DNA of 51,099 bases, from the sequence record NC_129764.1. One strand, given 5' to 3'. Below, one piece after another: positions 1-51,099 of this stretch. Position 1 is the stretch's first letter, and every line of letters begins with the position of its first letter. The translations under genes were made by a program, and so were the position numbers. Source of the stretch: a phage. Under the pieces are notes generated by a model. That model saw only the letters and a program-made list of their open reading frames with translations. It was not told the DNA's origin and ran no database searches.

Positions 1-530
1 ATTGCATGGTGTGCAACAGTTGGTTGATTTGTTGCTGAGATTGCAATGATTGTGAGAGGGGGGATTTAGTGTTACCCGGTTCGCCTGGTGGTCATCTCCA
101 TTTTTAGCAAAACGTGCTATTCGTCTATGCGGTAGTTGTAATTGTCGTAATAGTTGTATACCATTAGGGGTGTTACAAAATGGCCCGAGAATCGATAGGC
201 CTATAGATAATAAAATATCTATATATAATAATAAGATAGATAATATATATTTATTTATTTATTATATTATATATTGGTATGTAATCGGCGTAATAGGTGC
301 AACCGCATTTTTTGAGGGTGGCATATATTTCGTGATGCATAGTATAAAAAACATACTATTCCGCGCGCATAAATAGATGTTCTTACTTTTATAGAAAAAG
401 TCGGTTGCATCGGTTGCACTGGTTACAAAAATAAAAAATGCAGCTATAGACATTGACGCGCCTGACGTTGTAGCTGTAACATGTTTTTCGAAGTTGAAAG
501 TTACACCCATAGACAACGAGGTATAGACAA
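1..530. promoter_or_regulatory. AT-rich non-coding control region with GTTACA/GTTGCA-type repeats and (TATAGATAATA)-like tracts
   Basis: No convincing ORF; AT tracts 200-290; repeated gttaca/gttgca/tgtaac words; shares GGTGTTACAAAAT (169-181) with the region at 30868-30881. Confidence 0.5.
103..121 (-). promoter_or_regulatory. dyad motif copy (rc reads AATAGCACGTTTTGCTAAA), minus orientation
   Basis: Direct sequence match to the recurrent motif; points toward window start. Confidence 0.5.
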
Positions 531-1106
531 GTGAAAACTCAGCTTAAAGAAGTGACAGAATTTGAACTCAACCTGCCGGACTATATTCGAAAGGCGATTG
601 AAATCCACCAATCAGGCGGTGAGTTCTCAATCACCGGAAAGCAAATGGTTGAAGTGTACGTCAATGAGCAGGCCGAGATTGTAAAGGCTACTCAGGGCGT
701 GGAACTTAACGATGACCAGATCGATGAGGCAGTCGTTAACGAGTACACATCTCGATCAGCCTGGTTGCTCGAGCGACTCACCGCGTCGTACGTGTCCAAT
801 ATCATCAAGCGCCACATGCTCAAGGCGCACAATAAGGCCGTATCTGTGCGAATCAACCGCGATCAGGTTGACGGGGTGACGATATTCATAACCGAACTCG
901 AAGGCGAGGAAGCAGAGAAGGCCATAGGCGAAGCTAAACAGGGCAAGAGAGGTCGCAAGCGAAAGAGCATAGCCGACACGTTCAATGCTAAGGTTGAGGC
1001 GTTCAGAATCGATTTGAGGGATTTTGAAGGTAGCAATATCTCGGTATCCGATCTCAATAAGCTGGTCGAGCAATTCCGCTCGCATTTACTGGATGAGGAG
1101 AAATAA
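531..1106 (+). CDS. hypothetical early protein (191 aa), GTG start
   Basis: Long ORF, GAGG 10 nt upstream, acidic with KRGRKRK basic patch. Confidence 0.55.
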   Translation: MKTQLKEVTEFELNLPDYIRKAIEIHQSGGEFSITGKQMVEVYVNEQAEIVKATQGVELNDDQIDEAVVNEYTSRSAWLLERLTASYVSNIIKRHMLKAHNKAVSVRINRDQVDGVTIFITELEGEEAEKAIGEAKQGKRGRKRKSIADTFNAKVEAFRIDLRDFEGSNISVSDLNKLVEQFRSHLLDEEK

Positions 1107-4226: not shown

Positions 4227-4375
4227 TGACTGCATGGGTTTTGATTATCTTAATGAGTACCGGGCCAGATCACGTATACATGGAAAGCCAACAATCATGC
4301 AACAAGGCACGGGAAGTTATCGCAGAAAATAAGCCGTTCGGATATGAAGTAAAAACTATGTGTGTTAAACGATAG
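4226..4375 (+). CDS. small protein (49 aa)
   Basis: TAATG overlap with upstream stop; hydrophobic N-terminus; stop TAG in motif; below track cutoff. Confidence 0.3.
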   Translation: MTAWVLIILMSTGPDHVYMESQQSCNKAREVIAENKPFGYEVKTMCVKR

Positions 4376-4390
4376 CACGAATTGCTAAAC
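4372..4390 (+). promoter_or_regulatory. dyad motif copy ATAGCACGAATTGCTAAAC
   Basis: Sequence match; downstream hairpin aaggcca-tttgatatag-tggcctt. Confidence 0.65.
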
Positions 4391-4455
4391 CTTCCGCAAG
4401 GCCATTTGATATAGTGGCCTTATTGAAGCAGAGCAACCAATCAGAGGAATCGGCT

Positions 4456-5822: not shown

Positions 5823-6269
5823 ATGAAACATTTGATTTGCATTGAAACGCCTAACGATGAATACACCCTGCACGGCATCGGAATGTTCAAAGGTCACTAC
5901 ATGACAGCAAGTATTTATGATGCGCGTCGCGGCGATGGCGATCTGATGATTACCTCAAAAGAGGTTAATCCGTACATCATGCAGAATCTTGGAAATAACG
6001 AATATATGGCCTACGGCTGCAACGCGGTGTATAAGCATATCAAGATCCGCAAGCGTGTCGTGCGAGCATTCAAGAAAATTGCAATGAAACACTGGAAGAT
6101 GAGCAAGAAAGATGCCGGACATTGGGCGCGTAACGTTGCAGATTCATACTTCTACCGTAACGGCGAGTCATGCTACTTCCTGATCGATGAAATGATGGAA
6201 AATTATAGCGGCACATTCTGCCAAAGTGATTTTGACGCCTGGGCTGACTACGAGGTCGATTGCTGGTAA
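5823..6269 (+). CDS. hypothetical protein (148 aa)
   Basis: ATG with RBS gagggaacactcATG. Confidence 0.55.
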   Translation: MKHLICIETPNDEYTLHGIGMFKGHYMTASIYDARRGDGDLMITSKEVNPYIMQNLGNNEYMAYGCNAVYKHIKIRKRVVRAFKKIAMKHWKMSKKDAGHWARNVADSYFYRNGESCYFLIDEMMENYSGTFCQSDFDAWADYEVDCW

Positions 6270-6288
6270 TAGCACGAATTGCTAAAAC
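6268..6288 (+). promoter_or_regulatory. dyad motif copy AATAGCACGAATTGCTAAAAC
   Basis: Sequence match; hairpin aagggca-tttgttagaa-tgccctt. Confidence 0.65.
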
Positions 6289-6352
6289 TTGCTCAAGGGC
6301 ATTTGTTAGAATGCCCTTCGTTGAGTTAAGCAACCAATCAGAGGAATAAATC

Positions 6353-6994: not shown

Positions 6995-7567
6995 ATGAAA
7001 ACAGCTATCATTTTAAACGGCGCGCCGGGCGCAGGCAAAGACACTATCGGATGCATCCTGGCCGACACTTACGATCACGTAGCGCTACGCAGCTTCAAGG
7101 CGCCAATGTTTGAGATTGCCCGAGCAATATTGGGTGAGACTAATTTCGAATACTTCATGTTCTTGTATGAGGACCGTCGATATAAAGAAGAGCCAGCATC
7201 AATCCTGAACGGTAAAAGCCCGCGCCAGTTTATGATCTGGATTAGCGAGGAGGTCATCAAGCCGCAGTTCGGAAATCGCTTCTTCGGTATGCGAGCGGAA
7301 AGCAAGGTGAAAGAGTCTCACTCCCTTTCGGTATTTACTGACGGTGGATTCAAAGACGAGATCTTGCAGATGATTGAAGGTGATATCCAGGTAAAGCTAT
7401 GTCGAATCCATCGCAACGGTTGCAACTTTGACAACGACAGCCGCGACTATATCTATCTTGACGATATGATCGGGGTCAACGGTTATCAGGAATGTGACTT
7501 CTTTTCTGTCGAAGGCCATCCAGAAATTACCGCCCAGCACATAGCCGCCACGTTCATCAACAAATAG
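6995..7567 (+). CDS. P-loop kinase (190 aa), possibly polynucleotide or nucleotide kinase
   Basis: Walker A GAPGAGKDT at N-terminus. Confidence 0.6.
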   Translation: MKTAIILNGAPGAGKDTIGCILADTYDHVALRSFKAPMFEIARAILGETNFEYFMFLYEDRRYKEEPASILNGKSPRQFMIWISEEVIKPQFGNRFFGMRAESKVKESHSLSVFTDGGFKDEILQMIEGDIQVKLCRIHRNGCNFDNDSRDYIYLDDMIGVNGYQECDFFSVEGHPEITAQHIAATFINK

Positions 7568-7583
7568 CACGAATTGCTAAAAC
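7563..7583 (+). promoter_or_regulatory. dyad motif copy AATAGCACGAATTGCTAAAAC
   Basis: Sequence match; stop TAG embedded. Confidence 0.65.
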
Positions 7584-7639
7584 GTCGGTGGGGTGATTTG
7601 ATATAGTTACCTCATCGACAACGAAGAGAGAAAATCGAA

Positions 7640-9344: not shown

Positions 9345-9354
9345 TAAATACTAA

Positions 9355-9376
9355 CCCGCCTCGGCGGGTTTTTTTA
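9355..9376 (+). terminator. intrinsic terminator
   Basis: cccgcc-tcg-gcggg stem followed by T7 run. Confidence 0.7.
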
Positions 9377-9393
9377 TGCCTGCAATATGCTAA

Positions 9394-23826: not shown

Positions 23827-23848
23827 CCCGCCTTGCGCGGGTTTTTTT
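23826..23848 (+). terminator. intrinsic terminator (cccgccttgcgcggg family)
   Basis: Perfect stem followed by T7; followed by TAGAATGG. Confidence 0.7.
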
Positions 23849-23889
23849 GTAGCTGTAGAATGGTTGCAACTAAACAAGAGGAAAAGAAA

Positions 23890-26005: not shown

Positions 26006-26028
26006 CCCGCCTTGCGCGGGTTTTTTTT
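26006..26028 (+). terminator. intrinsic terminator (cccgccttgcgcggg family)
   Basis: Same stem as 23827; T8 run; followed by TATAATGG. Confidence 0.7.
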
Positions 26029-26076
26029 CGCCTGTATAATGGGTTAACCGATAAACAGCACAAAAAGGTAAACATC

Positions 26077-30755: not shown

Positions 30756-31282
30756 TTGTATGCCCTCGTCGTTAGTGTGTTTGAATTGTATGTCGCATTT
30801 ACTTTTATTGCAATAGTTCGATTACAATTTTTTTCGCGTAACAGGTGTCTATTTTTGTAACTGGAAGTGGTGTTACAAAATCGACCTCATTCGACCGCAG
30901 GTAGATATGATAAAAACTCTATATAATATATATAGATAGATAATATTTAATTTTAGCTTTATATATATAATTATTGCTGTGTAACAGTTGTCTATCATGT
31001 AACAGGTGATTTGATTGATTCGTCAAATTTCTATCATATATGTTCAAAATTTAATCAATCTTGGTTCTATTCATGGATATCTGTGTATTTATAAGAAAAA
31101 GCGGTTACAAGTGTTACACAATATACACCACATAAAATCAGTGTTAATCTATTGATTCCATTGATGCTGGTTGTAACTTGAGCGATATAGACACACGATT
31201 ACACACCAATTACATGTATTCGATTGACTAAACGCTGTTAATGGCTATAATGAATTCATCGTAAACGAAGGAGATAAACGAA
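30756..31282. promoter_or_regulatory. AT-rich divergent control region with GTAACA/GTTACA repeats and TATAGATAATA tracts
   Basis: No ORF; AT tract 30900-30980; repeats gtaacag/gttacaa; GTGGTGTTACAAAAT at 30868-30881 matches 169-181. Confidence 0.55.
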
Positions 31283-32347
31283 ATGTTCCAGGTATTCACA
31301 TCAAACCAGCTTTCTAATGACGAGTATCATAGCAATGAAGGTTGGGCGGCAGAGTATGTAAGCGGATCGAGCCTTGCAGAAATTTATCAGACCTGCCCGG
31401 CTAACTGGCGATTCAAGAAAAACGAGACAACGAAAGCGCTGGAGTTCGGTACTCAGTCTCATACCAACTTCGAGAGTCGCGATCTGTTTACTGCAACTTA
31501 TGCTCGTTGTCCGGCTCCGTCAGAGTTTAAAGATCTCATTACTTCGCAAGCCGCTCTGGCATCGAAATTAAAATCATTCGGCCTGAAAGGTACATCCGGT
31601 AAGCAGTACCCCGATCTCATCAAAATGATGGTTGATTGTGGTGAGGAACTAAACGTTCAATACCTGATTGAACTGATCGCAGAAGCTGAGGCGCGCGCTG
31701 AAGGAAAGAAACTCGTTGACGCTGACAAATACGATGCATGCATGAAAATGAGAGCCATTCTTGAGCAAAACCCGGATCATGAAGCGTGCATCAACAGTGA
31801 AACGGCGCAGCGTGAGATTTCAATCTTCGGTGAGATATCCGGCGTCAAAGTTAAGGTTCGACTCGATCATCTTGACTACAAAGAGAATGTCCCGGGTCGT
31901 GTGCTGACTGGTTATGATGAGAATGGCGATCCGGTTTATGAAGACGTAATTTTCCCGGAAGCGCTGATTATAACTGACTTCAAAACCACGATGAGCGCCA
32001 ACCCGTTAGAGTTCCCGAGACTGGCATACAATCACGGGTATTATCTGAAAATGGCCTTGCAGCATGACCTGCTACGACGCGCAATCCAGGCTGGCGCTTT
32101 TGAGGGTAACTTCCCGGAAGATATCCCGATCGTAGTTCGATTGCTGGCTCAGGAGAAAAAAGAGCCTTACATCGCACTTGCTTACCGTATGACTATGGAG
32201 CAAATCAGGATCGGTCGTAGCCAGTATGTTAGCGTAGTCCACACTTACAAGGCTTGCTCTGAAATGGATGTTTGGCCTGGGTACGCTGGCGACGCAAGCG
32301 AGATTGAACTTGAAACGCCATCATGGGTGCGTTACCAAAATAAGTAA
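31283..32347 (+). CDS. putative recombination exonuclease (PD-(D/E)XK-like, 354 aa)
   Basis: Position upstream of Erf and SSB; D-x-K-like segment ITDFKTT. Confidence 0.5.
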   Translation: MFQVFTSNQLSNDEYHSNEGWAAEYVSGSSLAEIYQTCPANWRFKKNETTKALEFGTQSHTNFESRDLFTATYARCPAPSEFKDLITSQAALASKLKSFGLKGTSGKQYPDLIKMMVDCGEELNVQYLIELIAEAEARAEGKKLVDADKYDACMKMRAILEQNPDHEACINSETAQREISIFGEISGVKVKVRLDHLDYKENVPGRVLTGYDENGDPVYEDVIFPEALIITDFKTTMSANPLEFPRLAYNHGYYLKMALQHDLLRRAIQAGAFEGNFPEDIPIVVRLLAQEKKEPYIALAYRMTMEQIRIGRSQYVSVVHTYKACSEMDVWPGYAGDASEIELETPSWVRYQNK

Positions 32348-32421
32348 ACGGCACAAATAGCTAAACAAATAATTAATGAGGTGTTATAATGCACCTCATA
32401 CACCAATCAGGAGAAGTTAAG

Positions 32422-33069
32422 ATGCAATTATCACCAGAAACAAACGAAATTCTTCCCGCACTGTTCAATGCTCGCAACAAATTTGCTAAAGCAAAGAAGG
32501 ACGCAAAAAACAATCACCTGAAAAATTCATACGCAACCCTTGATGCAATGATGGCGGCCGTTAGCCCGGCGCTCACCGATAACGATATTATGATCCTGCA
32601 ATCAATGCTTGACACCAGCACGGAAACAACCTTCCATCTTGAAACGATGCTGATTCACAAATCCGGGCAATGGGCCAAGTTCTTCATGATGATGCCTATT
32701 GCAAAGCGCGATCCTCAAGGTGTAGGTTCAGCGATGACGTATGCTCGGCGTTACTCATTAGCCGCAGCGCTGGGGATTAGCCAGAGTGATGACGATGCTC
32801 AACTTGCAGTGAAATCTGTCAAGGACTGGAAAAAAGAACTTGATGCGTGCGAAGATATCGAATCACTGAAAGAGGTATGGGCTAACGCTTACCGACAGAC
32901 GGACACGGCAAGCAAGTCAATCATTCAGGATCACTACAACGCACTTAAGGCTAAGTTTGAGATCGGTAAAGCTCGCGGCATTCGCCCGGCGCAACCGGAA
33001 CAGAAAAAACAGGTTGAAGCAACGAGCGCGAAGCCTGTACAATCTCAATCAATCACCAACTTCGAATAA
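32422..33069 (+). CDS. erf: Erf-like single-strand annealing protein (215 aa)
   Basis: ERF-family-like sequence (AMTYARRYSLAAALGI); RBS context caatcaggagaagttaagATG. Confidence 0.6.
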   Translation: MQLSPETNEILPALFNARNKFAKAKKDAKNNHLKNSYATLDAMMAAVSPALTDNDIMILQSMLDTSTETTFHLETMLIHKSGQWAKFFMMMPIAKRDPQGVGSAMTYARRYSLAAALGISQSDDDAQLAVKSVKDWKKELDACEDIESLKEVWANAYRQTDTASKSIIQDHYNALKAKFEIGKARGIRPAQPEQKKQVEATSAKPVQSQSITNFE

Positions 33070-33115
33070 TCATCAGGGCGGCTTCGGTCGCCCATAAATT
33101 TTAGGAGAGAAAATT

Positions 33116-33538
33116 ATGCATATTATAACTGGCGAGATCCGAAAAGAACCTAAGATTCTGGAACGTAACGGCGGCAATACTTACATCATCGAACTGGCAG
33201 AAAGCTACAAGCCTCGTGATGGGGATCGCGAATACACCAACTACACATTCTTTTTCAGCGACGGTGGAAAGCCCGGCCTTGCTGACTGGTATCGTGATGC
33301 GTTCCAGGTTGGTCGAGTCATTTCAGTATCGTGCGAAACGTTGAAGATCTCATCCCGTGAGCACAACGGAACTGTTTACAATTCATTGCAGGCGGCTGAC
33401 TTCCCCAAACTTGTTTTCAGTCAACGAGGTCAAGGTAATCAGCAACAACGAGCGCTGAATCAACAGCAACGCACTCAACAGCAATCACAACCAAAACCAA
33501 ATCCTCAGTCAACTTTCGACGACGATATTCCGTTTTAA
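33116..33538 (+). CDS. ssb: single-stranded DNA-binding protein (140 aa)
   Basis: C-terminal acidic tail DDDIPF preceded by Gln-rich linker. Confidence 0.8.
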   Translation: MHIITGEIRKEPKILERNGGNTYIIELAESYKPRDGDREYTNYTFFFSDGGKPGLADWYRDAFQVGRVISVSCETLKISSREHNGTVYNSLQAADFPKLVFSQRGQGNQQQRALNQQQRTQQQSQPKPNPQSTFDDDIPF

Positions 33539-33540
33539 TA

Positions 33541-33575
33541 AGAAAGCCCCGCATTGCGGGGCTTTCTTTTATTCT
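33541..33575. terminator. bidirectional intrinsic terminator
   Basis: aaagccccgcattgcggggcttt stem with flanking T-run. Confidence 0.7.
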
Positions 33576-35695
33576 TCTTTGCAACCTGTTGCGTGTGCTT
33601 CCTCCCACTCGCTTCTTTTTGCCCCGTTTCTTACTTCTCGCTCCATCCTTTCTAATTCGGTGTTGTAAATGCTGTTAGGTGGCATTTCAACACGGATGCT
33701 AACGAAAACATCATTCGGTATGTCGATCGGATCGCCGTTCGAATAACCTTCCTTATCGTTCCTTGCGAACTTCGGCGCACTCTCATGCGTTCGATGGAAT
33801 GTTTTAAGGATTATTGATCCATCGGCGTTTACTTCATAATCAACCCACAATAGCGGCTGCTTGTTTATGTCAACCGGGATTTCGATTCCACCACTAATGC
33901 CACCCCAAGCAAGATCGGAGTTCAATCCTGTGCATCCTTCAATAAGGTACTCGCCAACCCCGATTCGCTGAACGGTGCAGCCCTCAGATTCGTCGTTGGT
34001 TTCGAAAGAATCCCTCTTAACCCTCACGATCGGTGAAGCTCGCTTGATAAATCCATTGCCATCTACGGTTGTGTTTTTAGTTCCCCATAGAGCATTGACT
34101 TGAACCACGCCACTATTGAGGCCGCTATTGTTCGCGCCGATAGAGTAAACGTTAGCATTCCTGTAGTCAACTGAAAGCAATCCGAATGTATCACCTGCAA
34201 GCATGTAGATAGCTGCGTTATGCTGGAAGTTAGCTCCACCTGCAGAAGCCGCACCAGTATTACGCATAACCCTAGAACCTCCAGTATCGCGCATTCCCTT
34301 AATCCAAGCTCCAATATTTGGTTGATTTATATCCTTACCAGCACCTATTACCATAGTCTTATCACTATCTATTATAACCCTTCCGTCATATGCAACAGAG
34401 CTATCATCTCTCAACTGTAGTGCTCTATTAGACGTTCCGTTTTTAAAATAAACATCATTTCCACCAACACCAATATAACCAGATTGATTTGGCCTTCCCT
34501 GATCGGAACGCTTAATTGTAATTCCGTATTCTACACTTGGGGATGCGCTAGTTAGAACCTCCTTCCACGCACCATAATTACCATTATTCATACATCTGAA
34601 CATCATCCTTCCAGAACTTGAGTAAGATCCAGAGAGTTGAAATTTGTAATTATTGCCCTTAGTGCAATTAAATGTTACAACACCCAAAAACTGACCATCA
34701 CCAATACCGAATGGCTTTCCAAAGTTACCCCCTTCACCAACATAGAATCCATTTGCCAGATTAACAGAATTACCCTCAGATAATGAGTTTACAAGTCCAG
34801 CACTTGATTGAAGGCCAAGCCCAAACTTATCTATATCAAGATTTGTTCTTGCAACGCTTTTGTTTGTCAATCCACTAAGATTACCATCCTTCGTTAACAG
34901 GTTGTCAGCGTTAATGCTATTAGCTGCGTCCTTTGCTTCCTGAGCGCTAACCGATGCCGCATCTTTTGCACTAACAGCATCGTCACGAGCCGCCTGTGCG
35001 TCGTTTTTTGCTGAGGTTGCAGTTTGCGCCGCCGCCTGGGCGTTGTTAACGTAACCTGACAGATCTCCTTTGGCGTCATTGATTGCTTTAATGGCTGCTT
35101 TCTCTTCCGTGTCGATGTGCGTAATCGCCGCTGATTCTTTAGAGCCTACATCTGTGATCGCTTGTTCTTTTGCTGCATTGATGCTACCGACAGCCCCGTC
35201 AACAATTTGCTGAACTTGGCCTTTGGTGGCTTTAGCTTCGTCACGTGCTGCATTCGCTGAGTCGCGAGCAAGTTCCGCTTGATTCTGTGCAGATTCAGCG
35301 GCTGATTTGTTCGCCTTAATTTCTTCAACGATGCGGTTAAGGTTATCCATATCCAGACTCGCAATGATATCCATTGCCCCGGCAATCTCAGTCTCTTTGC
35401 TTTGATAGTATCGAAGCGTCTCAGCGACGTTTTGAGCCAATCCGTTAACAGTCAGTGAATCGTTAAGCAAGATCACATACTTACCGTCAGAGGCAGTCTG
35501 ACCGTCGGTAGAGATAGCCTTTAATTCTGTGTCGCTAACGATATCGCTAATCACCGCCAGCTTAATTGGTTGCTCAAGGAACACGATAGTTGCACCTACG
35601 CGAATAAGAGCAAGCTGATCTTTCCATTTTGTATCGGTTCCGTGAACCGTTCCGTCTGCATCCATTGATGCCGTACCGCGTCTGTATAAAGCCAT
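33569..35695 (-). CDS. tail fibre protein (708 aa)
   Basis: Long ORF with Ala/Lys/Asp-rich coiled-coil N-terminal part and Gly/Asn-rich distal region. Confidence 0.65.
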   Translation of the reverse strand: MALYRRGTASMDADGTVHGTDTKWKDQLALIRVGATIVFLEQPIKLAVISDIVSDTELKAISTDGQTASDGKYVILLNDSLTVNGLAQNVAETLRYYQSKETEIAGAMDIIASLDMDNLNRIVEEIKANKSAAESAQNQAELARDSANAARDEAKATKGQVQQIVDGAVGSINAAKEQAITDVGSKESAAITHIDTEEKAAIKAINDAKGDLSGYVNNAQAAAQTATSAKNDAQAARDDAVSAKDAASVSAQEAKDAANSINADNLLTKDGNLSGLTNKSVARTNLDIDKFGLGLQSSAGLVNSLSEGNSVNLANGFYVGEGGNFGKPFGIGDGQFLGVVTFNCTKGNNYKFQLSGSYSSSGRMMFRCMNNGNYGAWKEVLTSASPSVEYGITIKRSDQGRPNQSGYIGVGGNDVYFKNGTSNRALQLRDDSSVAYDGRVIIDSDKTMVIGAGKDINQPNIGAWIKGMRDTGGSRVMRNTGAASAGGANFQHNAAIYMLAGDTFGLLSVDYRNANVYSIGANNSGLNSGVVQVNALWGTKNTTVDGNGFIKRASPIVRVKRDSFETNDESEGCTVQRIGVGEYLIEGCTGLNSDLAWGGISGGIEIPVDINKQPLLWVDYEVNADGSIILKTFHRTHESAPKFARNDKEGYSNGDPIDIPNDVFVSIRVEMPPNSIYNTELERMEREVRNGAKRSEWEEAHATGCKEE

Positions 35696-44262: not shown

Positions 44263-44478
44263 TTATGCATCAGCCCACATGTAACTTTCGTTCGTGAGTT
44301 TTGCGTATTCTCGAACTTCAATCTCGCAGGTGTCGCCGTACATCTCAGCGACCTTCTTCTCGTTCGCTACCGCCGTTTCTTCAGTCCATCCATCGGCCTT
44401 GCTGTAAAGGGTGGGAATCTCACTGCTAGTGCCGTTAGAGTGGTTGTAAACGCGAACTACTAAAAATTTGTTAGCCAT
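44263..44478 (-). CDS. hypothetical protein (71 aa)
   Basis: ATG (MANKF) with RBS aaggaaagcattATG downstream of a motif copy. Confidence 0.5.
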   Translation of the reverse strand: MANKFLVVRVYNHSNGTSSEIPTLYSKADGWTEETAVANEKKVAEMYGDTCEIEVREYAKLTNESYMWADA

Positions 44479-44539
44479 AATGCTTTCCTTCGGGTCGCCT
44501 CGTTTCGATGAAACAAATATACCCGATACGAGATCGGGT

Positions 44540-44560
44540 GTTTTAACAAAAAGTGCTATT
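44540..44560 (-). promoter_or_regulatory. dyad motif copy (minus strand AATAGCACTTTTTGTTAAAAC)
   Basis: Sequence match; hairpin acccgatctcgtatcgggt followed by TATATT. Confidence 0.65.
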
Positions 44561-44667
44561 TGTACCTTTTTACGTGAAGGAGTAACTCCCCCTCCTTGTC
44601 GCAAAGATTATGCTCGCTTTCGTTACTGGCCCTCATTGAAGTGAGTAACAGACTCAACAACCCTTGC

Positions 44668-45075
44668 TCAAATTCTTCTTTCGTAAGATGGAGCCTTGCG
44701 CACAATTCGACGTTCCGATCTATCAATGTTTCTACGTTCGCCAAACAAATCTTCATCACTCATCTCTCCAATGTGCATCATTTCCCACGTATACCGATTG
44801 TTGTAGCCATCAATACACATCAGCTTCATCATTACCGGGCGCTTAATCTTTCCCTTGCACCAGTAAACTCCATCCTTGCGATCTAAGTAACCCTCAGTCA
44901 CGCAACGAGCGCAAAACTCCTTAGATAGCGCGCTTGTAAATTCACGGCGAGTCATTCCAGCAGCCTTAGCAAATCGCTCACTTTCCTTGTGGGCGTATAT
45001 AAATTTCGCTATGTGCTGTCGAGTGTATTTATCGTAACCTTCGCAGAACCTGAACAGATCTAAAAGAAGAAGCAT
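44668..45075 (-). CDS. hypothetical protein (135 aa)
   Basis: ORF; weak RBS, start uncertain. Confidence 0.45.
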   Translation of the reverse strand: MLLLLDLFRFCEGYDKYTRQHIAKFIYAHKESERFAKAAGMTRREFTSALSKEFCARCVTEGYLDRKDGVYWCKGKIKRPVMMKLMCIDGYNNRYTWEMMHIGEMSDEDLFGERRNIDRSERRIVRKAPSYERRI

Positions 45076-45079
45076 GTTG

Positions 45080-46648
45080 TTAACCCATTAGTCGAGGATT
45101 GATGAAAACAATATCATCAATGCGGCAAGTGTAGTTCATCTCTTCGAGCGTGATCAGTAGGCTATCGATTCGCTCAGATACTTTCTGTTGACCGTTGAAC
45201 GGAGTAACGTTCCGGCACTTTGCAACAATACTATGAATAGGCGCGCGCCCTTTGTTCTTCTTTGCGATCTCAGTGATAACATCAATCAGCTTACGAGATT
45301 CAGCCTCATCACCTGCATACCCGGCAGCGCTGGCAGATGACAGGTAAGTCCTGGAAAGCTCATTGAAAATCATGATCGCTTCTTGCATTGTTTCAAGGTC
45401 AATCTCACGGTTGGATCGGTTCGGTGATTCGCCTTCCCAATTCTTGATCGTGTGTAGAACTGAAGCAATACGCAAAGCGTGCTTATCGAACTTGCCGAGA
45501 TGACCGCGAAGCATTGAGTGAGAGTATTTTCCCCCGGCGGCGAAATCAGGCTCCATCGCCTGGCGTGCAAGGTTTAATTCACGCATAGCATTACGGCTCA
45601 CAGAGAGAACAACGTTGTCCTCCTTCATGATGTTGTGCACGAGTCTGTAATATTTGCTAACCAGTCCGCGATCGACTTCTTTATACAGTGCATCACCATT
45701 TTCATCACAAAGAATACGAGTACCTAAAAGCGGTTCCTCTCGAACCAGGAGGAAACGCTCAGATACACCGATACCGCGCTGGCCTGCGTCCATGATACCC
45801 TTGATTGTTTCATCCTGAGCAATTACGCAGATTGAACCGACCGGGCATAGAGATAAGTTGTTATCCTGGTTGGAACGAGCGACCTCCATATGGTTTTTAT
45901 CCCACGCCTTAAGGATAAGCTCACTGTTAGATTTCTTATCTGAACCGCCATACGTAAGCCCGAGCAATGTATTGATTGCCGTTGCCTCGTCAGATATTAC
46001 GGAAAAGTGACCTTGCACTGCCGCCACTTTCGCAAGACCTTCAGGTGTAGGATCTGATACCGCGAAAACAATATCAGCCATCTTCTTGATCTTCTCTTCC
46101 AGTTTTTCTTTGTCCTCGTACAGTGCCGCCGTAGTGTTGCCTTTAGGATCATTCTTGATTTCCTTCTCAACCTGGCGTAGCTGACTGGTTAAACGGATAC
46201 GTTCCTTTTTGCGCTCTTCATTCAGTCGCTGAATCTCCGCACGCATAGGTGTAATCGCCGCTGAGTTAATCGCGGACTTACCTGTTGATGGTGGCTGGCT
46301 GATTACCATGTAAAGCGCGGTCGGCTGTTCCTCTCCGTGATATTGCACCCAAAACTTCCCTAGCATCGCGGCTGAGATGCAACCGATAAAATGAGCATAC
46401 GCGGATGAAACCGGGAACTGGACTGATTCAGCTTTTGCTTTTGCATATTCGAATACCAGGTTATCGCCACCTAACGAAATCAGAGGGAACTTATCGTTGC
46501 CGCTATTAATATCGATCGGGTCTTGCCAAAACGAAACGGAATCACCGTAGCTGTTTTCACGAATTGCGATCGCCACCGGGTTAACTCCAGTGCTATTGGC
46601 GATCTCAATAATCTGTTGGTAATTCAGTTTTGGCTTAATGTTAAACAT
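45080..46648 (-). CDS. putative P-loop NTPase (522 aa)
   Basis: ATG with RBS aaggagtttattgtgATG; Walker A-like PPSTGKS; central coiled-coil. Confidence 0.55.
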   Translation of the reverse strand: MFNIKPKLNYQQIIEIANSTGVNPVAIAIRENSYGDSVSFWQDPIDINSGNDKFPLISLGGDNLVFEYAKAKAESVQFPVSSAYAHFIGCISAAMLGKFWVQYHGEEQPTALYMVISQPPSTGKSAINSAAITPMRAEIQRLNEERKKERIRLTSQLRQVEKEIKNDPKGNTTAALYEDKEKLEEKIKKMADIVFAVSDPTPEGLAKVAAVQGHFSVISDEATAINTLLGLTYGGSDKKSNSELILKAWDKNHMEVARSNQDNNLSLCPVGSICVIAQDETIKGIMDAGQRGIGVSERFLLVREEPLLGTRILCDENGDALYKEVDRGLVSKYYRLVHNIMKEDNVVLSVSRNAMRELNLARQAMEPDFAAGGKYSHSMLRGHLGKFDKHALRIASVLHTIKNWEGESPNRSNREIDLETMQEAIMIFNELSRTYLSSASAAGYAGDEAESRKLIDVITEIAKKNKGRAPIHSIVAKCRNVTPFNGQQKVSERIDSLLITLEEMNYTCRIDDIVFINPRLMG

Positions 46649-46702
46649 CACAATAAACTCCTTAGTTGACGGTGTGAATGATACACCGCCAATGTTACAC
46701 GC

Positions 46703-46722
46703 GTTTTGCAAAAAGTGCTATT
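46703..46722 (-). promoter_or_regulatory. dyad motif variant (minus strand AATAGCACTTTTTGCAAAAC)
   Basis: Sequence match about 55 nt upstream of the P-loop gene. Confidence 0.55.
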
Positions 46723-46724
46723 GG

Positions 46725-47141
46725 TTATAAGTATTTGGCCTCAAAGGTTGTGCCGTCAGCAATACTAAAACCAACCTCTTCGCGGAATAATGTCCAGCGG
46801 CAACCGTCCTCATCAAAGATGTAACCAGCCACTCCACCGAGAGCGCGACCGCTTTCCACCTGGTAACGCTTGCCAACTTTGAATGATTTTTTCATTGGGT
46901 TGCGATGGTCAAGCCCTGTACACTTGAGTGTTTTGGTTTTAAGTTCAGTGAATTTTGCGAAGAAGATTTCATCAGATCCGTGAATCTGTAATTCATCGTG
47001 CTTTTCAAGTTTTAAATACTTACCACACTTTAACTTAACCTCGCGAGTACCATCGTATCGCTCTCGACCTTTGTACAGGTTGTTAACTTCAAATCCTGTG
47101 ATTTTGTCTGCGGAAGTACACTTAAGTTTGATGGATTTCAT
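46725..47141 (-). CDS. hypothetical protein (138 aa)
   Basis: RBS context aaccaatcaggagttaacgcaATG. Confidence 0.55.
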   Translation of the reverse strand: MKSIKLKCTSADKITGFEVNNLYKGRERYDGTREVKLKCGKYLKLEKHDELQIHGSDEIFFAKFTELKTKTLKCTGLDHRNPMKKSFKVGKRYQVESGRALGGVAGYIFDEDGCRWTLFREEVGFSIADGTTFEAKYL

Positions 47142-47200
47142 TGCGTTAACTCCTGATTGGTTATCTTGAATAAGGTCACTTTATCAAATGACCTTACGGC

Positions 47201-47223
47201 AATATTAACAAATCGTGCTATTT
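47201..47223 (-). promoter_or_regulatory. dyad motif variant (minus strand AAATAGCACGATTTGTTAATATT)
   Basis: Sequence match; hairpin aaggtca-tttgataaag-tgacctt. Confidence 0.6.
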
Positions 47224-47434
47224 ACCAGGGAATATAATCGTCGTCGTCATTATCACCAATATCATCGTCTGGTATCTCGAAGTCGGGATTATATTCACTT
47301 TCTGCGTCCATATCCATATTCCCTAGTGCTTCGTCAAGCGTAATTTCTTTATATGCAACCTTGATACACCATTCCGCACTAAGCCCGGCATCGAGCGCGG
47401 CAAAATAACGGGTCCAGAAATTATCCTGTTCCAT
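47222..47434 (-). CDS. small acidic protein (70 aa)
   Basis: ORF; highly acidic C-terminus. Confidence 0.5.
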   Translation of the reverse strand: MEQDNFWTRYFAALDAGLSAEWCIKVAYKEITLDEALGNMDMDAESEYNPDFEIPDDDIGDNDDDDYIPW

Positions 47435-47437
47435 TAA

Positions 47438-47662
47438 TTAGCTCCATGAATTAATGTAAATCGAGTTAGCCTCAAGCGTTGCGCGAACATCCGCATCTGT
47501 TGCATTTACTAAGCGCGATCCTGGTGTGCTGCCAATAACATTATTACCGTTCCGAGCCTTAGTTACCGTCATTGAAATAAAACCGGAAGACTTATCCATT
47601 TTGATAACTACACGCCCTTTCGCGTTCAGATGCTTGATGATATTCTCAACTTTAATGCTCAT
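47438..47662 (-). CDS. hypothetical protein (74 aa)
   Basis: ORF. Confidence 0.5.
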   Translation of the reverse strand: MSIKVENIIKHLNAKGRVVIKMDKSSGFISMTVTKARNGNNVIGSTPGSRLVNATDADVRATLEANSIYINSWS

Positions 47663-47879
47663 TTTTAATTCCTTTGTTTCGTTTGGTGTGGGAGTAATAT
47701 ACCTTACTCCATATTTATTGTCTTTAGCAATTGGTGCTATCAGTATTCTGAAATTACTTTACACTCTTTGATTGTTCCACCTAGCACTACTTTCTGCATC
47801 ATTGCTTTTTGGTGGCTATCATAAACGCGAACATTTTTTACGCTGTTAAATTTGCCAGTATAGAAAGTGTGAATATAAA

Positions 47880-48200
47880 TCATTTTTTACCGTCCCATGT
47901 TTGATATGCCGTCACAAGGTTAATGCTATGGTCGAACTCGTCAATGCTAAGCGATCCGATTCGAACCAGTTCTTTATCATGCTTAATATCGATCATCCGG
48001 CTATATGGATGACCTGGCACATATTTGAATAGTCGCTTGCTGTCAGCAATGTCTGCGTTGATTCCATAGAATCTTCCTACTGCCGCCTTCACGCGCTCCA
48101 TGATGTTTTTTTCGTGGATTGCTGCCGCGTTATTCAATGCCGCGACCGTGCTTCCGTTAATCTTCGGTGATTTCGTTGTGATTTTATAAGTGTGGATCAT
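47880..48200 (-). CDS. hypothetical protein (106 aa)
   Basis: ATG (MIHTYK) with RBS agggggaataATG. Confidence 0.5.
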   Translation of the reverse strand: MIHTYKITTKSPKINGSTVAALNNAAAIHEKNIMERVKAAVGRFYGINADIADSKRLFKYVPGHPYSRMIDIKHDKELVRIGSLSIDEFDHSINLVTAYQTWDGKK

Positions 48201-48216
48201 TATTCCCCCTAACCAG

Positions 48217-48417
48217 TCAGGATAGCTTTCTCGCTTCATCAATGATAACAGGTTCGAGACGCTCAAGTCTAACTCGGAACGTGTTCATAAATCCTTCGTT
48301 ATTCTTCAGTAGCTCGAATGCGTCTGTTGCCTCAATTGCGCTATTTCCCATGTAGGCAACTACTCTCTTTTGCGTCTTGCGTGAGATCGCAACCACGCGG
48401 TAGATATTATCACTCAT
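48217..48417 (-). CDS. hypothetical protein (66 aa)
   Basis: ATG (MSDNIYR) with RBS aaggaggcattgtATG. Confidence 0.5.
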   Translation of the reverse strand: MSDNIYRVVAISRKTQKRVVAYMGNSAIEATDAFELLKNNEGFMNTFRVRLERLEPVIIDEARKLS

Positions 48418-48781
48418 ACAATGCCTCCTTAACACGATCGGCAATGCAGGAGTTTACAGTGATTGAGTAGTTAGCCACGCCCCATAATGCAATATTGCCA
48501 AGCTCGGTACGCATTGATGGATTGTTTAGCTGAATGATTGTCTCGCCAGTATCTTTATCGACGAAGCGAGACACGCCAGAATGGTCCATCACGCGCGTTA
48601 CTAGGTTCACGCACTCCATTACATCACTTACACCATAATAGGCGGTTAGAGCGGCTCTCACGGCCTTCTCTTGCTTATTGTAAATCTTGCGCGCGATGTT
48701 CTCGATCGCTACGCTTTCTTTCTCGTCAGTCTGGATTGCTGTGCTGGCTGAGAAGTCCAGATCTGTGAAATGCTTAAACAT
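48410..48781 (-). CDS. hypothetical protein (123 aa)
   Basis: ATG (MFKHF) with RBS gaggaaagagttATG. Confidence 0.55.
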   Translation of the reverse strand: MFKHFTDLDFSASTAIQTDEKESVAIENIARKIYNKQEKAVRAALTAYYGVSDVMECVNLVTRVMDHSGVSRFVDKDTGETIIQLNNPSMRTELGNIALWGVANYSITVNSCIADRVKEALYE

Positions 48782-48838
48782 AACTCTTTCCTCGCTTGCT
48801 GTTGATGGGATGACTATACCAGCCATCCCGGATGAGCG

Positions 48839-48857
48839 TTTAGCAAAAAGTGCTATT
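48839..48857 (-). promoter_or_regulatory. dyad motif copy (minus strand AATAGCACTTTTTGCTAAA)
   Basis: Sequence match; hairpin gggatggctggtatagtcatccc. Confidence 0.65.
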
Positions 48858-49026
48858 CGGTAATTTCCTTCTCAACAATCGTCGTGTAGTCGTACATGCT
48901 TTTTCCGGCGCGAATCTGTTCCTTCATTCTGTTTTCGTACTGCTTCGCCTTCTTCTCATCAAGGTGAACAGTCTCTACATATTCACCCTCATATGTAACG
49001 CCGCCCATAACGATATATACGATCAT
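48853..49026 (-). CDS. small protein (57 aa)
   Basis: ATGA overlap with upstream gene; RBS ggaggaaagattATG; below track cutoff. Confidence 0.4.
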   Translation of the reverse strand: MIVYIVMGGVTYEGEYVETVHLDEKKAKQYENRMKEQIRAGKSMYDYTTIVEKEITE

Positions 49027-49403
49027 AATCTTTCCTCCAGGATTTCACGGATACGGTTGATTGCGTCCATCTTGTCGCAATCCCAACGAGTCGTTCCGTT
49101 ATCCGGTCGCTCTTCGAACGCGAGACTCACCTCTTCGAGAAGGTTGTCAATGATAGCCTCCTTCTCGTCACCGTCCAGCCTTCCGAACTCAACCGATCCT
49201 ACGTAACGATTGATATAAGAAATCATGCTTTTATGCTCTTCAATGGTAAAGATATCCGTGATACTGATCCCGGTATCGCGTTGCGTGATAACAACCCGGT
49301 TGCTGGGGTGGATTATCCCGCCCACCAGGCGATTGCAAATCTCAACTGTGAATCCCTTCTCATTTGCGCGGTCAATTGCTGACTGAAGTTTTGAATCTGT
49401 CAT
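49023..49403 (-). CDS. hypothetical protein (126 aa)
   Basis: RBS context aaccaatcaggagaatgactagATG. Confidence 0.55.
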   Translation of the reverse strand: MTDSKLQSAIDRANEKGFTVEICNRLVGGIIHPSNRVVITQRDTGISITDIFTIEEHKSMISYINRYVGSVEFGRLDGDEKEAIIDNLLEEVSLAFEERPDNGTTRWDCDKMDAINRIREILEERL

Positions 49404-49458
49404 CTAGTCATTCTCCTGATTGGTTTATGTTGGAGTTATACCCTGATTAACCGGGCGT

Positions 49459-49479
49459 GTTTTAACAAAAAGTGCTATT
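49459..49479 (-). promoter_or_regulatory. dyad motif copy (minus strand AATAGCACTTTTTGTTAAAAC)
   Basis: Sequence match. Confidence 0.65.
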
Positions 49480-49664
49480 TAGAATTTTACATCCTCAACA
49501 AGCTCGACAAATTTGTATCCCAGGCGATATGAGTCGCCGAACAACAACAGACCCATAAATTCATCTCTGCTTATTGACTGCTTATCAACCGTCCTTAACT
49601 CTCCGTTGTGAATCACAGTATCGCCGATCTTGATTTCTGATTTATGCACTAATTTCGTTTTCAT
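49479..49664 (-). CDS. hypothetical protein (61 aa)
   Basis: ORF. Confidence 0.45.
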   Translation of the reverse strand: MKTKLVHKSEIKIGDTVIHNGELRTVDKQSISRDEFMGLLLFGDSYRLGYKFVELVEDVKF

Positions 49665-49679
49665 TTGTTAGCCCGTTAA

Positions 49680-49865
49680 TTAGAAGAATGCTACATAGTT
49701 TGCAATGCCTTTGGCATCGTCGTTAGGCATCGCCTTGACAGCAAGGTCGTAACCCGCCTCTACCTTTTGCTTTGCTGATTCTTCGTTGTATCCCCAAATA
49801 ACCAGGATTTTAACTACGTTTTCTTTATTCAGAACTTTAAGGTCTTTAGTGATGCGACGTGCCAT
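49680..49865 (-). CDS. hypothetical protein (61 aa)
   Basis: ATG (MARRITK) with RBS gaggaaaacaaaATG. Confidence 0.5.
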   Translation of the reverse strand: MARRITKDLKVLNKENVVKILVIWGYNEESAKQKVEAGYDLAVKAMPNDDAKGIANYVAFF

Positions 49866-49922
49866 TTTGTTTTTCCTCAATCTCGTTTCGATGAGGTAAT
49901 TATGCCAAATCACACCGATCGA

Positions 49923-49943
49923 GTTTTAACAAAAAGTGCTATT
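49923..49943 (-). promoter_or_regulatory. dyad motif copy (minus strand AATAGCACTTTTTGTTAAAAC)
   Basis: Sequence match; downstream hairpin and leader catcgaaacgag. Confidence 0.65.
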
Positions 49944-50938: not shown

Positions 50939-51006
50939 GTCGATTGCTCCTGATTGGTTGATGTGATGAATCATACCTAGTCGACATGGATGAGTCGTTA
51001 GCAAAA

Positions 51007-51025
51007 AATGCTATTCCAATAATTG
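51007..51025 (-). promoter_or_regulatory. dyad motif variant (minus strand AATAGCATTTTTTGCTAAC)
   Basis: Sequence match about 70 nt upstream of the 50938 start. Confidence 0.55.
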
Positions 51026-51099
51026 CTCATTATTCCATCAATACTGGAATAGGTGTAATAATCTTGATTGTTATTGATTACGAATGATGAAACGTGATT

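What the first reader, a model, noticed from the sequence alone, without database searches (positions are those of the whole stretch)
1..530. Second copy of the AT-rich control module at the window start
The first 530 bp lack a convincing ORF and repeat the same elements as 30756-31282: GGTGTTACAAAAT (169-181), an AT tract with TATAGATAATA-like repeats (200-290), and gttgca/gttaca words (400-500). The two regions look like diverged duplicates of one control module, each preceding a block of plus-strand genes. A minus-oriented dyad motif at 103-121 points toward the window edge, suggesting the window is a permuted or arbitrary linearisation and that the minus-strand gene block at 44263-50938 is transcribed from the same junction.
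Basis: seen in the sequence. Interest (0 to 1): 0.5.

Follow-up and report, generated by a model that had tools for sequence, protein, structure and literature searches.

The report
Twin AT-rich control modules in T1-like phage
A T1-like phage genome carries two diverged copies of one ~350-bp non-coding module (short repeated words around the genome's two easiest-to-melt AT tracts, ending in an early promoter), found in every T1-family genome examined and the best current candidates for the family's unmapped replication origins or early-gene switches.

Summary
The window is a complete T1-like phage genome (Drexlerviridae, Tunavirus). Bases 146-483 align collinearly with 30837-31180 (z = 10-16 over shuffles; nhmmer E = 9e-8), and there is no third copy. 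Shared ordered elements lie outside the AT tract as well as in it.

Each copy has GTTACA-type words flanking an ~75-bp AT tract, then 2-3 tandem words at a 9-bp period, then a sigma-70-like promoter facing the downstream plus-strand genes. The two tracts are the least stable DNA in the genome.

The same pair occurs in all six other genomes examined (five genera). Each genus has its own enriched words. Copy A usually resembles its own genome's copy B more than other phages' copy A.

Bases 1-120 are a different element. They are half of a conserved junction block, and the 103-121 dyad is a copy of the family's known 21-nt intergenic repeat. The window starts and ends exactly where the T1 reference does, so the start follows a convention rather than being arbitrary.

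Function is inferred. I favour protein-bound origin-like elements coupled to early promoters (0.4) over transcription control alone (0.35). I found no published description.

The parts
50996..51014 (-). Proximal copy of the family's 21-nt repeat (ATAGCATTTTTTGCTAACG, 3 mismatches). A -10-like TATGAT follows at 50975-50970. Likely promoter of the minus-strand block whose first ATG is at 50938.
51000..51099 (.). Left half of the conserved non-coding junction block (continues as 1-120). TGATT/GATTG words are enriched. Candidate packaging (pac) region by position only.
   Evidence: the T1 record ends at exactly this base
1..120 (.). Right half of the conserved junction block. It matched in 43 phage records (best-place identity 93-98% in the records listed), whereas 121-530 is shared by only four other phages. 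Not part of the duplicated module.
102..120 (-). Perfect copy of the 21-nt Drexlerviridae intergenic repeat (ATAGCACGTTTTGCTAAAA on the minus strand). It lacks the usual -10 hexamer 19-20 nt downstream.
   Evidence: consensus from PMC11447400
147..161 (+). Degenerate left word unit of copy A (GTAATAGTTGTATAC), matching GTAACAGGTGTCTAT in copy B.
169..181 (+). GGTGTTACAAAAT, identical to 30869-30881. Its GTTACA word points towards the AT tract.
202..275 (.). AT tract of copy A. It holds the least stable 60-bp window of the whole genome (nearest-neighbour dG, z = 6.3).
280..303 (.). Degenerate right word unit of copy A (TGTAATcggcGTAATAGGTGCAAC), oriented opposite to the left word.
387..427 (+). 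TTTTATAGAAAAAG followed by three tandem words (GGTTGCA, GGTTGCA, GGTTACA; GTTRCA cores starting 404, 413 and 422, 9-bp period).
453..482 (+). Sigma-70-like promoter TTGACG-18-TAACAT, with a TGTAAC word over the -10. Both hexamers are kept in DELF2 while the spacer changes. A TTGAC(A/G) -35 is present in all A types.
500..529 (+). Leader with GTTACA (500) and two ATAGACA words (509, 523) just before the GTG start at 531.
531..1106 (+). First gene of the left plus block (191 aa). Fast-evolving family: 24-30% identical to the T1, SA12KD and IME347 counterparts, 16-18% to those of TLS, Rtp and KP36. Its variant changes with the type of copy A.
30785..30813 (-). Leftward promoter-like site TTGCAA-17-TACAAT in front of the Cor-like lipoprotein gene (30755-30525).
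30838..30861 (+). Left word unit of copy B: GTAACAGGTGTCTATTTTTGTAAC.
30869..30881 (+). GGTGTTACAAAAT of copy B. With 30852-30861 it forms the dyad ATTTTTGTAAC-N10-GTTACAAAAT.
30902..30976 (.). AT tract of copy B. It holds the second least stable 60-bp window of the genome (z = 5.5).
30980..31008 (.). Right word unit of copy B: TGTAACAGTTGTCTATCATGTAACAGGTG.
31103..31119 (+). Two tandem words, GGTTACAAG and TGTTACAC, at a 9-bp period, preceded by TTTATAAGAAAAAG.
31152..31179 (+). Counterpart of copy A's promoter (TTGATT-16-TAACTT). The -10 is weak (3 of 6) and a TGTAAC word lies over it.
31224..31251 (+). Extra near-consensus promoter TTGACT-16-TATAAT (11 of 12) before the exonuclease VIII gene. 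Conserved in T1, IME347 and TLS.

Best explanation
Region 121-530 (copy A) and 30756-31282 (copy B) are two paralogous copies of a cis-acting DNA module found across the T1-like genomes examined.

Shown:
- Each copy has an ~75-bp AT tract. Together these are the two easiest places in the genome to melt.
- Short hexamer/heptamer words flank each tract on both sides. In this phage they are GTTACA/GTTGCA and ATAGACA.
- About 100 bp further right are 2-3 tandem words at a 9-bp period.
- Each copy ends in a sigma-70-like promoter that fires into an early operon.
- The words differ from genus to genus but are shared between the two copies within a genome.

Inferred: a phage-encoded sequence-specific DNA-binding protein occupies the words.

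The mechanism I commit to: the word-AT tract-word core is an origin-like DNA-unwinding element. The protein bound on both sides distorts the AT tract. Transcription leaving the module, rightward from the module promoter and leftward from the neighbouring minus-strand promoter, adds negative supercoiling behind the polymerases. The tract then melts and the phage's own MCM-like helicase and primase can enter. The words over and upstream of the promoter would let the same protein tune early transcription. On this reading the phage has two origin/early-promoter units, one next to the packaging end and one in front of the recombination genes.
For: Duplication and uniqueness.

Only two >=80% AT tracts exist in the window, and they are the two least stable 60-bp windows (z = 6.3 and 5.5; the next is 3.3).

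Word enrichment in A+B against the rest of the genome:
- window: GTTACA 11 vs 13 (p = 5e-15); ATAGACA 6 vs 3 (p = 1e-10)
- KP36: GTAAGAT 13 vs 6 (p = 4e-22)
- Rtp: TCCGCGG 6 vs 0 (p = 6e-16)

In the window, T1 copy B, IME347 copy B and KP36 copy A, words sit on both sides of the AT tract in opposite orientation.

The same two-copy arrangement is seen in T1, SA12KD, IME347, TLS, Rtp and KP36. Within-genome A-B alignment z-scores are 6-30. Between genera, A-A and most B-B comparisons give z = 2-4.

In Rtp and KP36 the part kept nearly identical is the AT tract with its adjacent words, not the promoter end.

In KP36 the exonuclease operon is inverted and copy B moved with it. In TLS copy B has no divergent neighbour gene.

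SaPI origins are iterons on each side of an AT-rich region, pointing in opposite directions and read by the Rep winged-helix domain (PMC9371898).

Promoter elements.
Against: - No experiment bears on function. Everything about binding and melting is inference.
- The binder is not identified. The helicase's C-terminal domain is fairly conserved across genera whose words differ. The two helix-turn-helix candidates are about 50% identical across genera, with no telling pattern.
- Within the genus Tunavirus, copy B is nearly constant, but copy A comes in three very different types with different tandem words: GATTAACAC in T1, CTAGACA in SA12KD, GGTTRCA here. This is awkward if one initiator must read both copies.
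- The word orientation rule is not kept in every genome.
- Copy A is a mosaic, fast-changing region, which is unusual for an essential origin.
- The module keeps a fixed orientation relative to the downstream operon, which fits a purely transcriptional role equally well.
- T1-like phages carry RecE/Erf/SSB genes and might start replication by recombination, without a fixed origin.
- GC skew simply follows the coding strand and says nothing.
Confidence: 0.4

Rival explanations
1. Transcription control only. The two modules are immediate-early promoter regions read by unmodified host RNA polymerase. The words are operators for a phage regulator, either a repressor that shuts early transcription off or an activator. 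The far-upstream words allow looping. The AT tract is a flexible or curved segment, or a target for a host nucleoid protein, that modulates promoter strength. There is no role in replication.
For: Both modules end in sigma-70-like promoters aimed at early operons, and one word overlaps each -10. Tandem words lie about 25-50 bp upstream of the -35 hexamer, where activators and repressors commonly bind. These two operon starts are the ones that lack the 21-nt repeat found in 28 copies in the window, mostly upstream of the early gene clusters, which suggests a separate promoter class. Orientation relative to the downstream operon is kept even after the KP36 inversion. The type of copy A changes together with the variant of the first downstream gene, as expected for an autoregulated cassette. 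The phage encodes a Cro-like helix-turn-helix protein.
Against: The AT tract lies about 200-350 bp upstream of the predicted start sites, far outside the range of a classical UP element. In Rtp and KP36 the homogenised part is the AT tract and its flanking words, while the promoter-proximal parts are not similar. Words flanking the genome's two least stable sites in opposite orientation are not needed for a simple operator. The first-gene product shows no DNA-binding fold.
Confidence: 0.35
2. The similarity is a by-product of recombination. Two AT-rich intergenic spacers are repeatedly patched from one another by the phage's own RecE/Erf system. The repeated words are slippage products with no specific function beyond carrying ordinary promoters.
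For: Within-genome A-B similarity is patchy and can be very recent (KP36: about 65 of 67 bases identical in the core). Copy A is mosaic. The phage has an active recombination module next to copy B.
Against: The arrangement (two copies, same positions, same internal order) persists across the five genera sampled, whose sequences are otherwise unalignable here. The words are 40- to 100-fold enriched and almost absent elsewhere in each genome. Copy B is about 90% conserved over its whole 527 bp in some 60 genomes.
Confidence: 0.1
3. Packaging signal. The module is part of the pac site recognised by the small terminase, and copy B is a second packaging start.
For: Copy A lies 120-500 bp from the base that the T1 record uses as the start of its 1-2800 repeat region. 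TGATT/GATTG words are enriched at the junction.
Against: The conserved, word-rich junction block (about 51000-51099 plus 1-120) is distinct from the duplicated module and is not repeated at copy B. Copy A 121-530 is replaced wholesale between close relatives that share the junction block. TLS restriction mapping gave a single pac fragment (PMC11447400).
Confidence: 0.05
4. The regions encode a small protein or a structured RNA rather than acting as DNA sites.
For: The re-annotated T1 record lists a 46-aa ORF inside copy B. KP36 lists an ORF across its copy A tract. A 68-aa ORF exists at 170-376.
Against: The ORFs are not shared between copies A and B. IME347 has 14- and 8-base gaps inside the T1 ORF region that break the frame. 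There are no Rfam or tRNA hits in the window. The composition is that of random AT-rich sequence.
Confidence: 0.03

Closest known systems
SaPI (staphylococcal pathogenicity island) replication origins with self-loading Rep helicases
   Same: Short 5-7 bp words specific to each element sit on both sides of a central AT-rich region, with opposite orientations across it. The genome encodes an AAA+ helicase of the MCM/SF6 kind ending in a winged-helix domain (PMC9371898).
   Different: A SaPI origin lies immediately downstream of rep and is single. Here there are two copies, about 5 kb and 14 kb from the helicase gene. The helicase's C-terminal domain does not visibly change with the words. Binding is untested.
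Two-site phage origins: SPP1 oriL/oriR and P4 ori/crr (from my own knowledge, not checked here)
   Same: Two separated cis regions in one genome carry the same initiator-binding repeats next to AT-rich DNA. SPP1 is also a pac-type siphovirus with an exonuclease/annealase/SSB module.
   Different: The initiators of those systems (SPP1 gp38, P4 alpha) are known and unrelated in sequence. No initiator is identified here, and within Tunavirus the two copies do not always share their tandem words.
Transcription-coupled phage origins: T7 primary origin, T4 oriF/oriG (from my own knowledge)
   Same: A promoter is paired with an AT-rich unwinding element.
   Different: In T7 and T4 the promoter fires into the AT-rich element to leave an RNA primer or R-loop. 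Here the clearest promoters fire away from the tract, so any coupling would be through supercoiling.
21-nt intergenic direct repeat of T1-like phages (aaATAGCACnnnTTGnTAAAA; TLS paper PMC11447400)
   Same: The motif at 102-120 on the minus strand matches the consensus with no mismatch. It is intergenic and points the same way as the minus-strand genes.
   Different: It is not part of the duplicated AT-rich module. No copy occurs in 121-530 or anywhere in copy B. This copy lies about 260 nt, not about 76 nt, from the next start codon and lacks the usual -10.
Operator-promoter control regions such as lambda OR/OL
   Same: Multiple copies of a short word lie over and upstream of early promoters at two separate sites in one genome.
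   Different: Those regions have no 75-bp AT tract, and their operators are 17-bp dyads for a known repressor. T1-like phages are virulent and no repressor is known.

Membership tests
Iteron-type replication origin | AT-rich DNA-unwinding element | tested here: met
   The two tracts are the only >=80% AT 80-bp stretches and the two least stable 60-bp windows of the genome.
Iteron-type replication origin | Several copies of a short replicon-specific word next to the unwinding element | tested here: met
   GTTACA occurs 11 times in A+B against 13 in the other 50 kb (p = 5e-15). The words differ by genus.
Iteron-type replication origin | Words bound by a cognate initiator protein | not testable with these tools
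   Candidates are listed (MCM-like helicase, two helix-turn-helix proteins, first-gene product), but none shows a pattern that tracks the words.
Iteron-type replication origin | Replication starts there (bubble mapping, copy-number peak, or plasmid amplification) | not testable with these tools
   No read data or experiments were available. GC skew follows the coding strand and is uninformative.
Iteron-type replication origin | Origin lies in or next to the initiator gene (as in lambda or SaPI) | tested here: not met
   Copy A is about 5 kb and copy B about 14 kb from the helicase gene at 45080-46711. Copy B adjoins the recombination genes instead.
Sigma-70 promoter | -35 and -10 hexamers with a 16-18 bp spacer | tested here: met
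   453-482 TTGACG-18-TAACAT (9 of 12) and 31224-31251 TTGACT-16-TATAAT (11 of 12). The overall number of pattern hits is no higher than in shuffles, so the pattern alone is weak evidence.
Sigma-70 promoter | Hexamers conserved in relatives while the spacer drifts | tested here: met
   DELF2 keeps both hexamers with two spacer changes. A TTGAC(A/G) -35 is present in all three A types. TTGACT...TATAAT is kept in T1, IME347 (TATACT) and TLS.
Sigma-70 promoter | Mapped transcription start | not testable with these tools
   No transcript data for any T1-like phage was found in the library.
UP element / upstream promoter enhancer | AT-rich element at about -40 to -60 of the promoter | tested here: not met
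   The AT tracts lie about 200-350 bp upstream of the predicted starts (coordinates).
Drexlerviridae 21-nt intergenic repeat (for the motif at 102-120) | Match to aaATAGCACnnnTTGnTAAAA | tested here: met
   No mismatch on the minus strand. It is one of 28 copies with at most 3 mismatches in the window.
Drexlerviridae 21-nt intergenic repeat (for the motif at 102-120) | Intergenic and oriented with transcription | tested here: met
   It points towards the minus block across the junction and groups with the other minus-strand copies (family D4).
Drexlerviridae 21-nt intergenic repeat (for the motif at 102-120) | About 76 nt upstream of a start codon, followed by a -10-like hexamer | tested here: not met
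   It lies about 260 nt from the ATG at 50938, with no -10 hexamer 19-20 nt downstream. The copy at 50996-51014 fills that role.
pac site | Located at the start of the first headful / terminal redundancy | tested here: inconclusive
   Window base 1 equals T1 base 1, where the RefSeq record's 1-2800 repeat region starts. This concerns the junction block, not the duplicated module, and no read-end data were available.

The most novel reading that the evidence does not exclude
The two modules are the unmapped replication origins of T1-like phages. They would be twin iteron-flanked unwinding elements, kept alike within each genome by gene conversion and retuned to new words in each genus. An MCM-like phage helicase would load onto them, and divergent early transcription would activate them.
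Probability: 0.35. Interest if true: 0.7.

Novelty: new member of a known kind. Interest (0 to 1): 0.5.

Why it matters
T1 is one of the classical T phages, yet two recent genome papers on T1-like phages report finding no origin of replication or iterons (PMC11447400 for TLS, PMC7718038 for SU57). The TLS paper lists the family's regulatory repeats as an open question.

This analysis gives two precise candidate loci, each with a defined core of about 150 bp and a short list of words to mutate. That makes two questions directly testable: where T1 starts replication, and how it separates immediate-early transcription from later transcription.

The within-genome similarity of two non-coding elements 20-30 kb apart is also a clean case of concerted evolution in a virulent phage. 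T1-like phages are common laboratory and fermentation contaminants and are candidates for phage therapy, so knowing their essential cis elements has practical use.

Tried and rejected
- Coding reading: the small ORFs in both regions are not shared between the copies, and the T1-annotated 46-aa ORF is broken by 14- and 8-base gaps in IME347.
- Structured RNA or tRNA: no Rfam or ARAGORN hit.
- GC and AT skew: they follow the coding strand only.
- UP element: the tract is too far from the promoters.
- Second pac site: the junction block is not duplicated at copy B.
- Scan of IMG/VR for GGTGTTACAAAATCG: 56 loci, of which I recognised only the T1 contig (L017) and took the rest, unexamined, to be chance matches. 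Not useful.
- Identifying the word-binding protein by comparing genera: the helicase C-terminal domain, the Cro-like protein and the 135-aa protein next to the helicase are all about 50-60% identical across genera, with no pattern tied to the words. PDB sequence searches were empty.
- Gapless repeat finder: it recovered the 21-nt family but missed the A-B pair, which needs gaps.
- Literature: eight full-text searches, plus term look-ups inside the four T1-family genome papers held, found no description of the duplicated module, a T1-family origin, or T1 transcript maps. The Rtp genome paper is not held. I did not try to open the original T1 genome paper, which I expected not to be held, so a mention in either cannot be excluded.

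Full report
**What the window is.** The 51,099-bp window is a complete genome of a T1-like siphovirus (Drexlerviridae, Tunavirinae, Tunavirus). The first 1.2 kb is 96.9% identical to phage DELF2. Gene content is typical of the family: terminase, portal, tail, Cor-like lipoprotein, RecE-like exonuclease, Erf, SSB, primase, helicases and methylases.

Window base 1 aligns with base 1 of the T1 reference, and base 51099 with T1 base 48836. The RefSeq T1 record marks 1-2800 as a repeat region, which I read as the terminal redundancy. The start therefore follows the T1 convention at the left physical end rather than being arbitrary. Records linearised differently (DELF2, SA12KD, ADB-2, BIFF, pSf-2, Lg3) run straight through the junction, so the DNA is continuous there.

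**Check of the observation.**
- The local alignment 165-483 vs 30865-31180 scores 49. Dinucleotide shuffles give 14.7+-2.1, and 40-bp block shuffles that keep local composition give 20.8+-2.8. The reverse complement scores 23.
- nhmmer with region B as query finds 146-480 on the same strand at E = 9e-8 and nothing else below E = 0.27, so there are exactly two copies.
- With the AT tract masked, the flanks remain similar (z = 4.5 left, 5.8 right).
- About 0.003 shared 13-mers are expected by chance between the two regions.

**Two different things lie in 1-530.** Bases 1-120, together with about 51000-51099, form a non-coding block that is highly conserved. The first 120 bases matched in 43 records, with best-place identities of 93-98% in the records listed. 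By contrast, 121-530 is shared only with DELF2, AV106, SH6 and phiL.

The 'dyad' at 103-121 is, on the minus strand, ATAGCACGTTTTGCTAAAA. This is a perfect copy of the 21-nt intergenic repeat aaATAGCACnnnTTGnTAAAA described for TLS and noted there for T1. The window has 28 copies with at most 3 mismatches, nearly all intergenic and pointing with the downstream gene.

A second, weaker copy at 50996-51014 is followed by TATGAT and a ribosome-binding site. It is the likely promoter of the minus block. The copy at 102-120 lacks a -10 hexamer at the usual distance.

**Anatomy of the duplicated module**. Reading left to right in copy B:
- a word unit GTAACAGGTGTCTATTTTTGTAAC (30838-30861);
- GGTGTTACAAAAT (30869-30881);
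- the AT tract (30902-30976);
- a second unit TGTAACAGTTGTCTATCATGTAACAGGTG (30980-31008);
- about 95 bp of spacer;
- TTTATAAGAAAAAG and two tandem GTTACA words 9 bp apart (31104, 31113);
- a weak promoter-like site TTGATT-16-TAACTT with a word over its -10;
- an ATAGACA word;
- a near-consensus TTGACT-16-TATAAT (31224-31251);
- the exonuclease gene at 31283.

Copy A has the same order, with partly degenerate outer units (GTAAT in place of GTAAC). It has three tandem words (404, 413, 422), the promoter TTGACG-18-TAACAT (453-482) and three ATAGACA words, and then the GTG start at 531.

GTTACA/TGTAAC occurs 11 times in the two copies and 13 times in the other 50 kb (p = 5e-15). ATAGACA occurs 6 times against 3. 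The two AT tracts are the only >=80% AT 80-bp stretches in the genome. They are also the two least stable 60-bp windows (z = 6.3 and 5.5; the next is 3.3).

**Family-wide comparison.** I examined T1, SA12KD, IME347 (Badaguanvirus), TLS (Tlsvirus), Rtp (Rtpvirus) and KP36 (Webervirus). Each genome examined whole (IME347, TLS, Rtp, KP36) has one strongly AT-rich tract in the left-end gap and one upstream of the exonuclease gene, with at most one marginal extra; for T1 and SA12KD I fetched and compared only the two regions.

Within-genome A-B alignment z-scores:

| Genome | z |
|---|---|
| window | 13 |
| T1 | 6 |
| SA12KD | 8 |
| IME347 | 23 |
| TLS | 7 |
| Rtp | 28 |
| KP36 | 30 |

Between genera, A-A comparisons give z = 2-4, as do the B-B comparisons except window vs IME347, where copy B is clearly orthologous (z = 46).

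Copy B is about 90% conserved across some 60 Tunavirus records. Copy A occurs in three very different types in that genus: T1/ADB-2/JMPW2/Lg3, SA12KD/BIFF/pSf-2/CLB_P3, and this window's type. In the window and IME347, where I made the comparison, copy A resembles copy B more than it resembles another phage's copy A. In Rtp and KP36 the AT tract plus adjacent words is almost identical between copies. This points to gene conversion or a shared constraint.

Each genus has its own enriched word:
- GTAAGAT in KP36 (13 vs 6, p = 4e-22), including the palindrome GTAAGATgaATCTTAC;
- TCCGCGG in Rtp (6 vs 0, p = 6e-16);
- GTGAACA/GGAACA in TLS;
- GTGACA/GTATACA in IME347.

In KP36 the exonuclease operon is inverted and copy B went with it. 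In TLS copy B has no divergent neighbour.

**What it is not.**
- Not coding.
- Not a known RNA.
- Not a UP element, because the tract is 200-350 bp from the promoters.
- Not a duplicated pac signal, because the junction block is not repeated at copy B.

**Mechanism.** Three things are shown: there are two paralogous modules; they carry words specific to each genome and almost confined to the two copies; and the module core is the easiest DNA in the genome to open.

Two things are inferred with good support. The words are binding sites for a phage-encoded protein whose specificity has drifted between genera. The right-hand ends are early promoters: their hexamers are conserved while the spacers drift, and the promoter before the exonuclease gene is near-consensus in four genera.

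Beyond that I favour an origin-like role for the word-AT tract-word core (0.4), for four reasons:
- Words flanking an AT-rich unwinding element is the layout of SaPI origins.
- The homogenised part in Rtp and KP36 is this core rather than the promoter.
- The phage carries its own primase and a helicase whose model matches MCM, Cch and the SaPI Rep helicases.
- No origin has been identified for this family in the literature I could search.

Promoters firing away from the tract on both sides would add negative supercoiling to it. This step is my inference from the general twin-domain model.

A purely transcriptional reading (0.35) remains nearly as good. Its main supports are the fixed orientation relative to the operons, the word over each -10, the absence of the 21-nt repeat at these two operon starts, and the co-variation of copy A type with the first gene.

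The main evidence against a single initiator reading both copies is that T1 and SA12KD have tandem words in copy A that are absent from copy B.

**Comparison with known systems and novelty.** The closest described systems are SaPI origins. From my own knowledge, others are the two-site origins of SPP1 (oriL/oriR) and P4 (ori/crr) and the promoter-coupled origins of T7 and T4. The module shares layout with these, but no defining functional feature could be tested, and it is not next to an initiator gene.

The 102-120 motif is a member of the known 21-nt repeat family by sequence and orientation, but not by spacing.

I found no published description of the duplicated module. The TLS and SU57 papers state that no origin or iterons were found. 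I rate it a new member of a known kind of element, of moderate interest, because it turns an open question for a classical phage into a short list of experiments.

**Limits.**
- All functional statements are inferences from sequence.
- Only seven genomes were compared in detail.
- Shuffle z-scores are not probabilities.
- The helicase fold match shows that the phage has an MCM-like helicase, not that it binds these words.

Noticed in passing
28 sites, e.g. 2085-2142, 4372-4430, 6269-6330, 7564-7620, 47203-47160 (minus), 48838-48800 (minus): Each 21-nt repeat (ATAGCACnnnTTGnTAAAA) is followed about 19-20 nt later by a -10-like hexamer (TATAGT, TATAAT or TATTAT, often preceded by TG). This puts TTGnTA about 22 nt from the -10, too far to act as a normal -35. 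In many copies the -10 sits in the loop of a hairpin whose stem sequence differs from copy to copy. Folding z is below -2 in 15 of 28 copies (mean -2.3). A conserved CATCGAnAACGA leader follows. This looks like a distinct promoter class that may depend on a phage factor.
   Followed up: partly
50939-51099 plus 1-130: The conserved junction block holds 6 TGATT and 5 GATTG words on the plus strand (expected 0.8 and 0.55). The 300-bp windows richest in TGATT genome-wide all lie at the window's right end and junction (starts 50801-51051). By eye, similar words occur at the left ends of the TLS, Rtp, KP36 and IME347 records. This is a candidate small-terminase recognition (pac) region.
   Followed up: partly
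[not shown]
   Followed up: yes
[not shown]
   Followed up: partly
9354-9390, 23827-23863, 26006-26042: Three copies of a terminator hairpin (CCCGCCTTGCGCGGG plus a T run), each followed immediately by TGTAGAATGG or TGTATAATGG, in the late gene region. These look like terminator-promoter junctions between late transcription units.
   Followed up: no
L069 (KP36) 32253-35008: In Klebsiella phage KP36 the exonuclease-Erf-SSB operon is inverted relative to T1, and the AT-rich module has moved with it, keeping its orientation relative to the operon.
   Followed up: partly
30846-30852 and 30989-30995; L006 (T1) equivalents: Both TGTCTAT words of copy B in this phage read TGTATAT in T1. The same C-to-A change occurs in two repeats 143 bp apart, which suggests either co-evolution with a binding protein or local gene conversion.
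   Followed up: no
31015-31155: The re-annotated T1 GenBank record lists a 46-aa ORF inside copy B (CPTT1_049). The IME347 sequence has frame-breaking gaps there, so the ORF is probably not a gene.
   Followed up: partly
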